A stretch of DNA of 23,456 bases from a virus. Taxonomy: Duplodnaviria; Heunggongvirae; Uroviricota; Caudoviricetes. Shown piece by piece: positions 5,536 to 9,267 of this stretch (its first letter is position 1; every line of letters starts with the position of its first letter). The notes beneath the pieces are model-generated. The model saw only the letters and a list, made by a program, of their open reading frames with translations. It searched no databases and had not been told where the DNA came from. The translations under genes were made by a program, and so were the position numbers. The stretch lies in IMG/VR virus record IMGVR_UViG_2526164646_000006; one strand, given 5' to 3'.

Positions 5536-6504
5536 TTAGTAGGTTATTTTTGTTGCGAATACTTCGCCTTTTACGATGGCTGTTATGATATTTTTAGCAA
5601 CATCTTCTGATGCACCAACCTTGATAAGGTCAGCAAGTATTTTGTTATTTACTTCTTTCCGGTGAGCTTTATCCTTTGCTCTACGCTCTTCTTCTTCCTT
5701 GATTCTTTTTTCTTCTGCTATTCTGGCTTGCTCTTTTGCTTCAGCATCGCGACGGATTCGTTCAGCCTCCTCCTGTGCTTTTCTGCGTTCTGCTTCAATT
5801 GCTGCCTGCTTTTCTCTTTCAGCTCGTTCTGCTGCCTCTTTTGCTTCGCGCTGTGCTCGCTGCTCGGCTTCAATGCGTTCACGCTCTGCACGTTCCGCTG
5901 CGGCCTTAGCTTCTGCTTCTCGCCTTGCTGCTGCTTCAATTTCGGCTTTTGCCTTTGCTTCGGCTTCTGCTCTGGCTTTCTCTTCAGCTTCTCTTTTTAA
6001 GCGTTCTTCATGCTCTCGCTTTTCCTGCTCCGCTTTGAGTCTTGCCTCTTCTCTTTGGCGGTCAAATTCGCGATCCATCAAAATAGCTATTTCATGGTCA
6101 GACTCAATTTGCTTTGCGAGAGCTTCAGCTGCTGCCTTAGCTTCTTCTTCGGCTTTAATCCGCGCCTGTTCTTCCTCATAATCAGTAAGAGGCTGGCGCG
6201 CCTTGGCTTTCAGTTCATCAAGGCGATCGCGCACTGTCTTGCGGTTAGCATCAATTAGCTTTGGAATTTCCTTCAGTTCAGCAACAAGGTCTTTGCCAAG
6301 ACCATCGAGATATGTTTTCGTCTGCGCAACTTTATACGCCAGAGAAGCGATCTCCTTTCTGCCCTTTGCCGTTGTGATATCAGGCACAAAGGACATAACT
6401 TCACGTTCAACCTTTTGAAGGATTTCTTCAATCTGGTCGGCAGACTGAAATACAGTCATTGCATTTGCTTTTTCAATAACAACTAAATCTGTTACTTCAC
6501 TCAT
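5536..6504 (-). CDS. charged coiled-coil protein with E/A/K/R-rich low-complexity core (322 aa)
   Basis: ATG at 6504 with GGAGGA RBS; long AEAKAKAE/ERAERE repetitive segment. Confidence 0.6.
   Translation of the reverse strand: MSEVTDLVVIEKANAMTVFQSADQIEEILQKVEREVMSFVPDITTAKGRKEIASLAYKVAQTKTYLDGLGKDLVAELKEIPKLIDANRKTVRDRLDELKAKARQPLTDYEEEQARIKAEEEAKAAAEALAKQIESDHEIAILMDREFDRQREEARLKAEQEKREHEERLKREAEEKARAEAEAKAKAEIEAAARREAEAKAAAERAERERIEAEQRAQREAKEAAERAEREKQAAIEAERRKAQEEAERIRRDAEAKEQARIAEEKRIKEEEERRAKDKAHRKEVNNKILADLIKVGASEDVAKNIITAIVKGEVFATKITY
5607..6117 (-). repeat. imperfect short tandem repeats encoding the E/A/K/R-rich segment
   Basis: Recurrent gcttctgc/ttcggcttc-type units on the plus strand; produces low-complexity shadow ORFs in other frames. 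Confidence 0.5.
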
Positions 6505-6514
6505 ATATCCTCCG

Positions 6515-6545
6515 TCAAAAAAATTGCCCTCACACTGGAGGGCAA
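6515..6545 (-). terminator. intrinsic terminator just upstream of the coiled-coil gene
   Basis: Minus-strand 8-bp stem (6524-6531 / 6538-6545) with 6-nt loop followed by a U-run (plus-strand A-run 6515-6523). Confidence 0.5.
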
Positions 6546-6679
6546 AGAAGATTTCCAATAATCAGAACAAGTCGGCTCCTGTTTAGTTACGAGCGACATT
6601 GCTCCGTGTATTCACTCGTTGGAATGAATACACAGTGCAGTGTTTATTCTGTTGTTTATGCCAAAAATAAAGGCCACCG

Positions 6680-6880
6680 TCAGGCAGCCTTGTTGTTCAG
6701 TTTACCAAGTTCTCTGGCAATCATTGCCGTCGTTCGTATTGCCCATTTATCGACATATTTCCCATCTTCCATTACAGGAAACATTTCTTCAGGCTTAACC
6801 ATGCATTCCGATTGCAGCTTGCATCCATTGCATCGCTTGAATTGTCCACACCATTGATTTTTATCAATGGTCGTAGTCAT
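6680..6880 (-). CDS. ral: Ral restriction-alleviation protein
   Basis: 66-aa translation MTTTIDKNQWCGQFKRCNGCKLQSECMVKPEEMFPVMEDGKYVDKWAIRTTAMIARELGK matches lambda Ral as recalled. Confidence 0.9.
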   Translation of the reverse strand: MTTTIDKNQWCGQFKRCNGCKLQSECMVKPEEMFPVMEDGKYVDKWAIRTTAMIARELGKLNNKAA

Positions 6881-6950
6881 ACGGATAGTCCTGGTATTGT
6901 TCCATCACATCCTGAGGATGCTCTTCGAACTCTTCAAATTCTTCTTCCAT
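6864..6950 (-). CDS. small acidic ORF (28 aa) between N and ral
   Basis: MEEEFEEFEEHPQDVMEQYQDYPYDYDH; stop overlaps ral start. Confidence 0.4.
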   Translation of the reverse strand: MEEEFEEFEEHPQDVMEQYQDYPYDYDH

Positions 6951-6958
6951 ATATCACC

Positions 6959-7285
6959 TCAAATAAGTGGTTTGCTGCCTAATTTCATTTTCTGGCGACC
7001 AACACAAGTCACACCCATTTCACTGCGTGGCTTGCTGTACCATGTGCGCTGATTCTTGCGCTCAATACGCTGCAGGTTGCTTTCAATCTGTTCGTGGTAT
7101 TCAGCCAGCACCGTAAGGTCTATCGGATTCAGTGCGCTTTCTACTCGTGATTTCGGTTTGCGATTCAGCGAGAGAATAGGGCGGTTAACTGGTTTTGCGC
7201 TTACCCCAACCAACAGGGGATTTGCTGCTTTCCATTGAGCCTGTTTCTCTGCGCGACGTTCGCGGCGGCGTGTTTGAGAGTCCAT
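6959..7285 (-). CDS. N: N transcription antitermination protein
   Basis: 108 aa; MDSQTRRRERRAEKQAQWKAANPLL... arginine-rich motif and near identity to lambda N as recalled; GAGGA RBS. Confidence 0.95.
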   Translation of the reverse strand: MDSQTRRRERRAEKQAQWKAANPLLVGVSAKPVNRPILSLNRKPKSRVESALNPIDLTVLAEYHEQIESNLQRIERKNQRTWYSKPRSEMGVTCVGRQKMKLGSKPLI

Positions 7286-7326
7286 ATATCATCCTCAGAT
7301 AAATGGCCCCTCAGCGGGGCCGACAG

Positions 7327-7455
7327 TTATTGGCAGGTTGCGTACTTGCTGATGCAGGAGAAGATTTCCACGATTCGCGTCATTGTTGTTTCAGGACGCT
7401 TTGCTTCATCACGCATTGACTTCAACCAAGCCATAAAGTGTTCGTTATGTTTCAT
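7327..7455 (-). CDS. small ORF (42-44 aa) in the N leader
   Basis: ATG at 7455 six nt after AGGAG (second ATG at 7461); ends 40 nt before N. Confidence 0.3.
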   Translation of the reverse strand: MKHNEHFMAWLKSMRDEAKRPETTMTRIVEIFSCISKYATCQ

Positions 7456-7473
7456 GTTCATCTCCTGTCAGTT

Positions 7474-7703
7474 AGCTTTGGTGGTGTGGTGGCTGGTAGT
7501 CTAGCTCCAGCTTGTTGAGTCTCATTCGGAGGGGTATAACCGGCACCCCAGCGATTTTTCCATGCGACAACGTGCGCGTTATGGCGGCCTTATCGCCCGC
7601 GGCTCCCCATCTCGTCCACGCTATTGCTAGCGTTGGGAGCGCTTCACCGCTCAACAGTAGGTAAGCACTTGCCAGTGACTAGCTGGCTTCACCACACCCC
7701 AAA
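7474..7703 (-). promoter_or_regulatory. N-leader long-range inverted repeat, candidate RNase III-type regulatory stem
   Basis: About 30-nt imperfect inverted repeats at 7474-7510 and 7668-7703 enclosing a GC-rich segment with local hairpins. Confidence 0.45.
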
Positions 7704-7722
7704 GCCTTCTGCTTTGAATGCT

Positions 7723-7752
7723 GCCCTTCTTCAGGGCTTAATTTTTAAGAGC
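7723..7752 (-). promoter_or_regulatory. nutL (boxA + boxB)
   Basis: Minus strand reads GCTCTTAAAAATTAA then GCCCTGAAGAAGGGC. Confidence 0.85.
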
Positions 7753-7797
7753 CTCACCTTCATGGTGGTCAGTGCGTCCTGCTGATGGCTTAAAATT

Positions 7798-7865
7798 ACA
7801 AGAAAGATTGTATGTTGTAAACAAGAAATATTGTAAAAAGGGGCGTGAAAAACAAACTCCATTGT
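7798..7865. promoter_or_regulatory. OL operator cluster / pL region (434-type ACAA-N6-TTGT sites)
   Basis: ACAAGAAAGATTGT 7798-7811, ACAAGAAATATTGT 7821-7834, ACAAACTCCATTGT 7852-7865. Confidence 0.65.
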
Positions 7866-7914
7866 TTTTAAATGAAAAATAGTTTGTTTTTGGTTATCGA
7901 GATTGAGGTGGGGA

Positions 7915-9267
<1,353 letters not shown>

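What the first reader, a model, noticed from the sequence alone, without database searches (positions are those of the whole stretch)
7286..7722. Extended, structured N leader with an extra small ORF and a hairpin on the N ribosome-binding site
nutL to the N start spans about 440 nt. It contains long imperfect inverted repeats (7474-7510 and 7668-7703) that can pair over roughly 30 bp, GC-rich local hairpins including a CGCUA-GCAA-UAGCG stem-loop, and a 42-44-codon ORF (7327-7455) that uses the AGGAG where I would expect N to initiate. N itself has a separate GAGGA RBS immediately after a 6-bp GC hairpin (7305-7321). Lambda N translation is known to be controlled by an RNase III site in its leader, so this may be an elaborated version of that control.
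Basis: partly seen in the sequence, partly recalled or inferred. Interest (0 to 1): 0.5.

Follow-up and report, generated by a model that had tools for sequence, protein, structure and literature searches.

The report
Extra small gene before lambda N
This lambda-like prophage carries a conserved but uncharacterised 42-codon gene between the N-loading site and the N gene, where it has taken over the ribosome start site that N uses in lambda; this variant has apparently not been described, and what it does is unknown.

Summary
The window is a lambdoid prophage with 434 immunity. The distance from the pL start to the N AUG is 501 nt, against 222 nt in lambda.

The extra length has two sources:
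- The interior of the leader hairpin is the HK446/Sf6-type variant, which adds 110 nt. This variant is already in sequenced phages.
- A 169-nt net insertion follows the lambda N Shine-Dalgarno sequence. It carries a 42-codon ORF, a GC hairpin, a new Shine-Dalgarno sequence and altered N codons 2-3.

The long-range stem (7706-7690 with 7491-7474) has 17 bp and one bulge. It is homologous to the base of lambda's leader hairpin. It is kept across 12 different lambdoid leaders, with compensatory changes in 11 of 17 pairs.

The ORF is a real gene:
- About 40 protein clusters are related to it.
- dN/dS is about 0.1.
- AlphaFold2 predicts a confident two-helix hairpin.
- No named family matches it.

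In phages the gene sits upstream of the first known early-left gene, which is usually one of several unrelated N types. It also occurs in Pseudomonas plasmids and genomic islands.

At the ORF-N junction two mutually exclusive hairpins are predicted, and one of them buries the N AUG. No covariation test is possible for them.

The protein's function and the effect on N control are inferred, not shown. I class it as a new variant of a known kind, of moderate interest.

The parts
7786..7799 (-). pL -10 hexamer (GTAATT, 7799-7794) and the transcript start (A at 7786)
   Evidence: Placed by alignment to the annotated pL -10 signal and first transcribed nucleotide of phage 434. The generic sigma-70 scan did not call it.
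7746..7753 (-). nutL boxA (GGCTCTTA)
   Evidence: Identical to 434 and HK446. Lambda has CGCTCTTA.
7723..7737 (-). nutL boxB (GCCCTGAAGAAGGGC)
   Evidence: Identical to lambda nutL boxB. It forms a hairpin in the minimum-free-energy fold.
7690..7706 (-). 5' arm of the closing stem of the leader hairpin (GGCUUUGG GGUGUGGUG)
   Evidence: Pairs with 7491-7474 in the minimum-free-energy fold. Across 12 leaders, 92.5% of cells are paired against about 43% in the slid controls, and 11 of 17 pairs carry compensatory changes. The same closing stem is predicted in 13 leader variants.
7492..7689 (-). Variable interior of the leader hairpin, HK446/Sf6 type. It includes the GNRA hairpin CGCUA-GCAA-UAGCG at 7632-7619.
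   Evidence: 100% identical to phage HK446 and 99.8% identical to Sf6 and HK633. Other leaders that share the same flanks have unrelated interiors.
7474..7491 (-). 3' arm of the closing stem (CACCACACC A CCAAAGCU, with a bulged A)
7462..7466 (-). Shine-Dalgarno AGGAG. This is the N Shine-Dalgarno sequence in lambda and HK446; here it serves the small ORF.
   Evidence: The alignment shows homology to lambda and HK446 ending right after AGGAGA. It lies 6 nt from the ATG at 7455.
7327..7455 (-). Small gene of 42 codons plus TAA: MKHNEHFMAWLKSMRDEAKRPETTMTRIVEIFSCISKYATCQ. RefSeq lists it as WP_000682198.1, hypothetical protein.
   Evidence: Annotated in 8 complete E. coli genomes. The family has about 40 clusters. 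dN/dS is about 0.1, and close pairs show 13 synonymous and 0 non-synonymous differences. AlphaFold2 predicts a two-helix hairpin with pLDDT 91.6.
7277..7460 (-). The cassette absent from lambda and HK446: small gene, hairpin, new N translation start and altered N codons 2-3 (GAC UCU in place of GAU GCA). Net insertion is 169 nt.
   Evidence: Alignments. In L013 it is 100% identical except for one loop base, although the adjacent N gene differs by about 10%. The lambda translation start combined with GAC UCU was not found in about 850 E. coli genomes.
7305..7321 (-). Hairpin A: GGCCCC-GCUGA-GGGGCC, followed by AUUUAUCU (7304-7297). It looks like a terminator.
   Evidence: Called by the terminator scan. 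Free energy is -14.7 kcal/mol and z = -2.6. Its 5' arm starts 5 nt after the ORF stop codon.
7275..7313 (-). Hairpin B, mutually exclusive with A: UGAGGG/CUCUCA, CCAU/AUGG and UAUC/GAUA around the loop UGAGGAU. It pairs the N AUG, and the Shine-Dalgarno sequence lies in the loop.
   Evidence: Free energy is -16.1 kcal/mol, z = -3.3, and 0 of 200 shuffles fold as well. When N codons are included, the AUG is unpaired with probability only 0.05. This is a thermodynamic prediction only.
7292..7296 (-). New N Shine-Dalgarno sequence, GAGGA
   Evidence: Read directly from the sequence. It lies 6 nt before the ATG at 7285.
6959..7285 (-). Antiterminator N, 108 aa
   Evidence: 90% identical to lambda N. 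A3S is the only change in the first 63 residues. It matches Pfam N36 at E = 5e-26.

Best explanation
The region is the 5' end of the early-left (pL) operon of a lambda-type prophage. An optional one-gene cassette has been recombined in between the leader hairpin and N.

**Order of events on the pL transcript.**
1. A lambda-identical nutL (boxA, boxB) loads N and the Nus factors.
2. A large hairpin domain follows. Its 17-bp closing stem is the homologue of lambda's RNase III-sensitive stem. Its 198-nt interior is the interchangeable HK446/Sf6-type module.
3. The ancestral N translation start, AGGAG at 7466-7462 just 3' of the stem, now starts a 42-residue protein.
4. N follows 41 nt after that gene's stop codon, with its own GAGGA Shine-Dalgarno sequence.

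**Shown here.**
- The homology and the mosaic boundaries.
- Covariation support for the closing stem.
- The small ORF is a conserved protein-coding gene, predicted to be a two-helix hairpin.
- In phages the gene lies upstream of the first known early-left gene, ahead of at least four different N types and, in one lineage, a CsrA homologue.
- The gene is present in some members and absent in others of two N lineages.

**Inferred.**
- The small protein acts in trans and is made at the same time as N or earlier, with no need for antitermination. By analogy with other accessory early-left genes and with its plasmid and island relatives, it may be a host-takeover or anti-defence factor.
- Whatever lambda-type control acts on the translation start next to the stem (activation by RNase III cleavage, repression by the N-Nus complex at nutL) now falls on the small gene first.
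- N translation is set separately, by competition between hairpin A, which leaves the N start open, and hairpin B, which pairs the AUG.
- The cassette spreads by homologous recombination, using the conserved leader 3' end and the conserved 5' end of N as flanks.
For: **Identity of the locus.** The window encodes the 434 cI, cro and hex genes and has nutL and N.

**Mosaic structure.**
- The leader is identical to HK446 up to AGGAGA. A 175-nt stretch then replaces 6 nt.
- The same cassette is joined to the leader interior seen here and to at least three others, and to several repressors.
- Eight of 5426 complete E. coli genomes carry it.

**Closing stem.** Searches cover the stem. HL15 adds one more compensated variant.

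**Coding status.**
- A full HMMER scan finds 9 relatives at the 50% representative level, and a profile search finds 40 clusters.
- The alignment keeps E17, A18, R27 and I31 invariant.
- pS is 0.54-0.99 against pN of 0.10-0.23. Near-identical pairs show 13 synonymous and 0 non-synonymous changes.
- AlphaFold2 gives pLDDT 91.6.

**Synteny.** The order repressor, pL, leader, small gene, N-like gene is seen in L017, L026, L027-L030 and L037.

**Presence or absence in a second N lineage.** HL15 lacks the gene, while L028 and L030 have it.

**Hairpins A and B.**. Lambda's own N start is unstructured at -4.9 kcal/mol, z = +0.4.

**Background on N autoregulation.** Binding of N and Nus factors at nutL represses N translation, and the intervening RNA is highly structured. 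This is as summarised in PMC5725501.
Against: - No expression or processing data exist. RNase III cleavage and N-mediated repression are carried over from lambda.
- The cleavage positions come from my memory of Steege 1987, Kameyama 1991 and Wilson 2002. Two of these papers could not be opened and the other two were not looked up.
- The protein's function is unknown. Pfam, NCBIfam, PHROGs, PADLOC, PDB sequences, PDB folds and BFVD folds all gave nothing. No neighbouring gene is conserved in the island contexts.
- Hairpins A and B have no covariation support, because all copies of this cassette are identical apart from one loop base.
- An intercistronic hairpin is not a conserved feature of other small-gene/N junctions.
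- The arms used for the covariation count were picked by eye, anchored on the UUUGG and CCAAA motifs. This favours the structure somewhat, although the slid controls argue that the signal is specific.
- Terminators predicted after ral (6691-6670 and 6545-6524) mean that genes just downstream of N may also be expressed without N. The 'only immediate-early slot' argument is therefore weak.
Confidence: 0.6

Rival explanations
1. The small ORF and the hairpin form a cis-acting elaboration of lambda's RNase III control of N. On this view the ORF is a regulatory upstream ORF, and what matters is that it is translated, not the peptide it encodes.
For: - The ORF uses the translation start that sits next to the RNase III-type stem.
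- Its stop codon is 5 nt from hairpin A, so a terminating ribosome would melt A's 5' arm and free A's 3' arm to form hairpin B over the N AUG.
- N codons 2-3 differ from lambda exactly where hairpin B pairs. The GAC UCU start is found only with the cassette.
Against: - The peptide sequence is under strong purifying selection.
- The peptide is conserved in Pseudomonas plasmids and in genomic islands with no N gene nearby. In one phage lineage it precedes a CsrA homologue.
- Other small-gene/N junctions lack a comparable pair of hairpins.
- A cis effect could still exist alongside a trans-acting protein.
Confidence: 0.15
2. The cassette is a promoterless moron whose hairpin A is a working intrinsic terminator. 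On this view pL transcripts stop before N unless RNA polymerase has already been modified by N. N synthesis would then start from leaky read-through and amplify itself.
For: - Hairpin A has six G-C pairs and a 5-nt loop and is followed by AUUUAUCU. The terminator scan calls it.
- It is stable on its own: -14.7 kcal/mol, z = -2.6.
- nutL lies upstream, so N-modified polymerase would be expected to read through. This last point rests on established lambda biology.
Against: - The U tract is short and interrupted, with an A directly after the stem and only three consecutive U.
- The hairpins at the equivalent place in L017 and L027-L030 have no U run, and L037 has a degenerate stem.
- A strong terminator ahead of N would block the lytic cascade.
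- Four terminator-like sites were found in 2 kb against 2.2 expected by chance.
Confidence: 0.15
3. The ORF is a chance open frame in a long leader and has no function of its own.
For: It is short, it is annotated only as hypothetical, no sequenced isolated phage carries it, and it matches no family model.
Against: - Homologues of 38-57 aa exist down to about 40% identity, with conserved columns.
- dN/dS is about 0.1, with saturated synonymous sites.
- The Shine-Dalgarno spacing is good.
- The AlphaFold2 model is confident.
Confidence: 0.02

Closest known systems
Phage lambda pL leader: nutL, the RNase III-sensitive hairpin and the N translation start (N autoregulation; Wilson et al. 1997 and 2002, Kameyama et al. 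1991, cited from memory and through PMC5725501)
   Same: - The transcript start region and boxB are identical; boxA differs by one base, as in 434 and HK446.
- The closing stem is the same (GGCUUUGGGGUGUG... with ...CACACCACCAAAGC).
- The same sequence, CUAACUGACAGGAGA, follows the stem.
- N is 90% identical.
   Different: - The hairpin interior is unrelated and about 110 nt longer.
- The translation start after the stem initiates a 42-aa protein, not N.
- N lies 169 nt further downstream with a new Shine-Dalgarno sequence and a predicted hairpin over its AUG. Lambda's N start is unstructured.
- The distance from the transcript start to the N AUG is 501 nt against 222 nt.
N leaders of phages HK446, HK633, Sf6 and Sf101 (sequenced phages)
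   Same: The sequence is 99.8-100% identical from pL through nutL and the whole hairpin domain to AGGAGA, and again from N codon 4 onward.
   Different: These phages go straight from AGGAGA-AUCCAG to the N AUG. They have no small gene, no hairpin A or B, and they start N with MDA rather than MDS.
Morons, which are single accessory genes inserted between conserved phage genes (Juhala et al. 2000 and Hendrix et al. 2000; from memory, both are listed in the references of PMC3573123)
   Same: This is a single small accessory gene. It is present or absent between otherwise near-identical flanks. It is followed by a terminator-like hairpin and is nearly invariant in sequence while its flanks diverge.
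   Different: No promoter of its own was detected. It sits inside the early operon upstream of its master regulator, so it is expressed in lytic growth rather than from the repressed prophage.
Small lambda early-left proteins such as cIII (54 aa) and Kil (47 aa)
   Same: They are short, largely helical proteins made from the pL transcript that act on host targets (established knowledge). Both cIII and kil lie downstream in the related loci.
   Different: There is no sequence or profile similarity. The position is upstream of N rather than downstream, and no host target is known.

Membership tests
Lambda-type N leader (nutL, RNase III hairpin, N start) | nutL with boxA and a lambda-type boxB hairpin downstream of pL | tested here: met
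   boxB is identical to lambda. boxA is GGCUCUUA, as in 434 and HK446.
Lambda-type N leader (nutL, RNase III hairpin, N start) | A long closing stem between nutL and the first translation start, homologous to lambda's | tested here: met
   The stem has 17 bp and one bulge, at 7706-7690 with 7491-7474. Eleven of 17 pairs have compensatory changes, 92.5% of cells are paired, and 0 of 500 shuffles reach the observed values. The stem is predicted in 13 variants.
Lambda-type N leader (nutL, RNase III hairpin, N start) | RNase III cleaves the stem | not testable with these tools
   This needs 5'-end mapping in rnc+ and rnc- cells or an in vitro cleavage assay.
Lambda-type N leader (nutL, RNase III hairpin, N start) | The translation start directly 3' of the stem belongs to N | tested here: not met
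   AGGAG at 7466-7462 is followed by the 42-codon gene. The N start is at 7285 and has its own GAGGA.
Lambda-type N leader (nutL, RNase III hairpin, N start) | N and Nus factors bound at nutL repress N translation | not testable with these tools
   This is known for lambda (PMC5725501). Here it would need reporter fusions.
Unnamed small-protein family (WP_000682198.1 and relatives) | A protein of about 40-45 aa matching MKHNEHvMxWLxxLRDEAxxPxxxxxRIIEI...Y | tested here: met
   The window protein is identical to WP_000682198.1. The family alignment is A5 and the profile hits have E = 1e-16 to 1e-22.
Unnamed small-protein family (WP_000682198.1 and relatives) | Membership of a curated family in Pfam, NCBIfam, PHROGs or PADLOC, or a solved structure | tested here: not met
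   There were no significant hits.
Rho-independent (intrinsic) terminator | A G+C-rich hairpin followed directly by a run of U | tested here: inconclusive
   The stem qualifies, with six G-C pairs. The tail AUUUAUCU passes the lax scan but is short and interrupted. Equivalent junctions elsewhere have no U run.
Moron | An accessory gene that is present or absent between conserved neighbouring genes | tested here: met
Moron | Its own promoter, giving expression from the repressed prophage | tested here: not met
   No sigma-70-like site lies upstream of the ORF on the minus strand. This is a consensus scan only.
Leader-peptide attenuator | Translation of a short ORF decides between alternative downstream RNA structures | tested here: inconclusive
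   The geometry fits: the stop codon is 5 nt from hairpin A, and A and B are mutually exclusive. There is no covariation, the feature is not conserved in homologous junctions, and the peptide itself is conserved.

The most novel reading that the evidence does not exclude
The 42-residue protein is an immediate-early effector that has captured the RNase III- and N-controlled translation start of N. The mutually exclusive hairpins A and B make N initiation depend on whether ribosomes are terminating on the small gene. This would add an extra timing and feedback layer at the very top of a lambda-type lytic cascade. The protein itself would target a host defence or a host factor.
Probability: 0.15. 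Interest if true: 0.7.

Novelty: new variant of a known kind. Interest (0 to 1): 0.45.

Why it matters
The lambda pL-nutL-N leader is a standard textbook case of coupled control of transcription and translation. A natural variant has a second cistron on N's own start site, and N has been given a new, structured start. It offers a ready-made test of how far nutL-based translational repression and RNase III activation reach, and of whether N autoregulation is dispensable.

The small protein belongs to an uncharacterised family found in phages, plasmids and genomic islands. It is a candidate early host-interaction factor, and it is cheap to test because it is only 42 aa.

The comparison also shows that the leader hairpin is a conserved stem with an interior that is swapped wholesale. 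What that interior is for remains an open question.

Tried and rejected
- **Rfam.** Nothing matched at E <= 1 on window 6500-8500. On six related loci the only hit was the known lambda cIII thermoregulator in L030. Rfam has no model for this leader.
- **tRNA and tmRNA scan.** ARAGORN found nothing in the window or in ten related loci. This rejects a real tRNA in the leader, despite a T-arm-like motif in one variant.
- **Sequenced phages.** blastn of the cassette and tblastn of a homologue against 50,697 phage records gave no match.
- **Species-representative genomes and metagenomes.** These added only 1 and 2 loci.
- **Protein family and structure searches.**
  - Pfam, PHROGs, NCBIfam and PADLOC gave nothing significant for the small protein.
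  - PDB sequences, PDB folds and BFVD folds gave nothing significant either.
  - The weak GCK and methyltransferase hits (E about 0.06-0.08) were rejected as noise.
- **Neighbours in the island contexts.** They match no family, and no partner gene is shared between the loci. A two-gene system is therefore unlikely.
- **Pairing of the ORF's Shine-Dalgarno sequence with 7361-7355.** This is seven perfect pairs. It was treated as probably chance, because the complementary codons are not kept in homologues.
- **Literature.** No paper mentions WP_000682198 or an ORF between nutL and N. The primary lambda papers could not be opened.
- **Intercistronic hairpin as a conserved feature of small-gene/N junctions.** Rejected.

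Full report
**What the window is.** The finding lies on the minus strand of a lambdoid prophage. The window encodes the phage 434 repressor (8316-8948), 434 Cro and the hex gene. These are followed by pL, nutL and an N gene (6959-7285), then ral. N is 90% identical to lambda N, and A3S is the only change in its first 63 residues. An IMG/VR contig (L015) is 100% identical to the window over 1500 nt.

**The observation.**
- boxB lies at 7737-7723 and the N ATG at 7285, so 437 nt separate them.
- By alignment to the annotated 434 pL start, transcription begins at 7786. The N AUG is therefore 501 nt downstream, against 222 nt in lambda and 332 nt in HK446.
- The leader folds better than all 100 shuffles, z = -3.4.
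- The inverted repeats pair as 7706-7690 with 7491-7474, which is 17 bp with one bulged A. The arms can be forced into about 32 imperfect pairs. Both the co-fold of the two arms and the fold of the whole leader prefer the 17-bp stem plus local hairpins.
- The GNRA hairpin at 7632-7619, the ORF at 7455-7327, hairpin A at 7321-7305 and the GAGGA at 7296-7292 are all as described.

**Where the extra length comes from.** An alignment with lambda, 434 and HK446, and then with eight E. coli prophages, shows a mosaic.
- The 5' flank is shared by all. It runs from the transcript start through nutL to GGCUUUGGGGUGUG.
- The 3' flank, CACACCACCAAAGCUAACUGACAGGAGA, is also shared by all.
- Between the flanks lies an interior that is replaced wholesale. 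Lambda and 434 have one version. The window has the HK446, Sf6 and HK633 version, which is 99.8-100% identical and 110 nt longer. Further unrelated versions occur in other prophages.
- After AGGAGA, the window has 175 nt where lambda and HK446 have 6 nt. This stretch holds the small ORF, hairpin A and a new Shine-Dalgarno sequence.
- Homology resumes at N codon 4. Codons 2-3 therefore read GAC UCU instead of GAU GCA.

**The closing stem is a conserved RNA structure.** I took the two arms from 12 distinct lambdoid leaders. These carry lambda-type, PF25694-type and other N genes.
- The 17 pairs are formed in 92.5% of cells, against 37-44% when the 3' partner is slid by 1-3 columns.
- Eleven of the 17 pairs show changes on both sides.
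- None of 500 shuffles reaches the observed values.
- Folded on their own, 13 leader variants with hairpin domains of 46-233 nt all close with the same architecture: 8 bp, a bulged A, then 7-11 bp. Their z-scores run from -1.5 to -5.9.
- HL15 adds one more compensated version.
- A caveat applies. I chose the arms by eye, anchored on the UUUGG and CCAAA motifs, so the count leans slightly towards the structure.

The stem is the homologue of the one that RNase III cuts in lambda. That attribution comes from my memory of Steege 1987, Kameyama 1991 and Wilson 2002. PMC5725501 confirms only that N and Nus factors at nutL repress N translation and that the intervening RNA is highly structured.

**The small ORF is a real gene.**
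- RefSeq annotates it as the hypothetical protein WP_000682198.1 in 8 of 5426 complete E. coli genomes. No sequenced isolated phage carries it.
- A word-indexed search found only its own cluster. A full HMMER scan found relatives down to about 40% identity. A profile search then found 40 clusters of 38-57 aa in Escherichia, Klebsiella, Citrobacter and Pseudomonas.
- The alignment keeps E17, A18, R27 and I31 invariant. N4, H6, W10, L11, L14, E30 and Y38 are nearly invariant.
- Between lambdoid copies the synonymous sites are saturated (pS 0.54-0.99) while pN is 0.10-0.23. Close pairs differ by 13 synonymous and 0 non-synonymous changes.
- AlphaFold2 predicts two helices, residues 5-19 and 25-41, with pLDDT 91.6.
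- No curated family, solved structure or fold library gives a significant match.

**Genomic context of the family.**
- In lambdoid phages the order is repressor, pL, leader, small gene, a gap of 36-41 nt, then an N-like gene. This holds for four kinds of N:
  - lambda-type N, as in the window;
  - PF25694-type N (L027-L030);
  - a mosaic N in L017 and L037;
  - a short arginine-rich protein in L026.
- In the Citrobacter loci the small gene lies upstream of the GGGGUGUG...CACACC stem rather than downstream.
- In L035 and L036 a CsrA homologue follows it instead of N.
- In the PF25694 lineage the gene is optional. HL15 has the same pL, nutL and N but lacks it.
- In L017 and L029 the same 13-nt translation start is repeated before the small gene and before N.
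- The 45-aa branch of the family sits in Pseudomonas megaplasmids and in genomic islands with integrase, ParA, RadC and UmuDC neighbours. No partner gene is conserved there.
- In L013 the cassette is identical to the window except for one base in the hairpin A loop. The adjacent N gene there differs by about 10% and the leader interior is yet another type.
- Among about 850 E. coli genomes that have the lambda-type N start, none combines it with GAC UCU.

Together these points indicate a self-contained cassette that moves by recombination through its conserved flanks.

**The junction between the small gene and N.**
- Hairpin A (7321-7305, -14.7 kcal/mol, z = -2.6) starts 5 nt after the stop codon and ends 8 nt before the N Shine-Dalgarno sequence. 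It is followed by AUUUAUCU, and the terminator scan calls it.
- Hairpin B (7313-7275, -16.1 kcal/mol, z = -3.3) shares the GGGGCC arm with A. It pairs the N AUG and N codons 2-4, and leaves the Shine-Dalgarno sequence in its loop.
- When the N 5' end is included, hairpin B dominates the ensemble, and the AUG is unpaired with probability only 0.05.
- Lambda's own N start is unstructured.
- Only one nucleotide varies among the available copies, so covariation cannot be tested. Other small-gene/N junctions have a different small hairpin, a degenerate one or none at all.
- I therefore treat A and B as a prediction specific to this cassette, not as an established switch.

**Interpretation.** The structural and evolutionary parts are well supported:
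- this is a lambda-type pL leader;
- its closing stem is conserved;
- its interior is an interchangeable module;
- an optional protein-coding cassette sits between the stem and N.

The functional parts are inferred:
- the small protein is made from the ancestral N start, so it is expressed as early as N and is subject to whatever control acts next to the stem;
- N is translated from its own start, which may be gated by hairpins A and B.

It is wrong in treating the ORF as part of a regulatory RNA.

**Verdict.** This is a new variant of a known kind and is moderately interesting. The architecture at one of the best-studied regulatory sites in biology is altered in a way that I could not find described. 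The protein family is uncharacterised, and no function has been shown.

Noticed in passing
window 7492-7689 (-); compare L002, L003, L004, L007, L013, L020, L025-L028, L030 and L033: The interior of the pL leader hairpin is replaced wholesale between phages that share near-identical flanks. At least 13 different interiors exist, in hairpin domains of 46-233 nt, and most of the domains are strongly structured. If both strands of the closing stem are cut, the interior would be released as a discrete RNA. Its purpose is unknown.
   Followed up: partly
L004 about 1715-1745 (the leader type of E. coli PRO_A-1504, Ecol_545 and C1); window 7511-7492 has the same stem: One interior variant ends in GCUGG-UUCGACU-CCAGC-CACCACACCACCA. 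This is a canonical tRNA T-arm and T-loop followed by an acceptor-like strand and CCA. ARAGORN and Rfam call nothing there. The window keeps the GCUGG/CCAGC stem but has a 10-nt loop.
   Followed up: partly
window 7277-7283 (-), N codons 2-3: N starts MDS (GAC UCU) instead of lambda's MDA. Residue 3 lies in the arginine-rich boxB-binding helix. In about 850 E. coli genomes this start was never joined to the lambda-type N translation start, so there it was seen only with the small-gene cassette.
   Followed up: partly
window 6946-6961 (-) and 7281-7297 (-): The translation start of the short acidic ORF after N is UGAGGUGAUAUAUGGA. It is almost the same as the new N start, UGAGGAUGAUAUAUGGA, differing by a 1-nt indel. 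This may be a short linker sequence that guided the recombination which built the cassette junction.
   Followed up: no
window 7355-7364 and 7458-7467: The small gene's Shine-Dalgarno sequence (CAGGAGA) is perfectly complementary to UCUCCUG inside its own coding region. The two pair in the minimum-free-energy fold. The complement is not kept in homologues, so this is probably chance.
   Followed up: partly
L035 2501-2829 and L036 1714-2042: In another phage lineage the small gene is followed 23 nt later by a 58-aa CsrA homologue (Pfam E = 1e-23) in place of N, at the head of an operon with YqaJ and RecT.
   Followed up: no
L029 about 2825-2960: Between the leader stem and the small gene, L029 has a further insertion of about 130 nt. 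It carries an 11-codon ORF and a second hairpin. The interval between the stem and N therefore appears to be a hot spot for insertions.
   Followed up: no
L005 and L006 (E. coli Ecol_545 and C1): In two genomes that carry the cassette, an IS21-family element (ISEc12) interrupts N just after its arginine-rich motif. The small gene is left intact.
   Followed up: no
window 5536-6558 (-): This 340-aa ORF has a long, highly charged, low-complexity tract rich in E, A, K and R. It lies in the early-left operon. It was not examined.
   Followed up: no
window about 7845-7890 (-): An A/U-rich hairpin (AAACAAACU...AGUUUGUUUUU) follows the hex stop codon. It probably ends the cI-hex transcript before pL. 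The terminator scan missed it because its G+C content is low.
   Followed up: no
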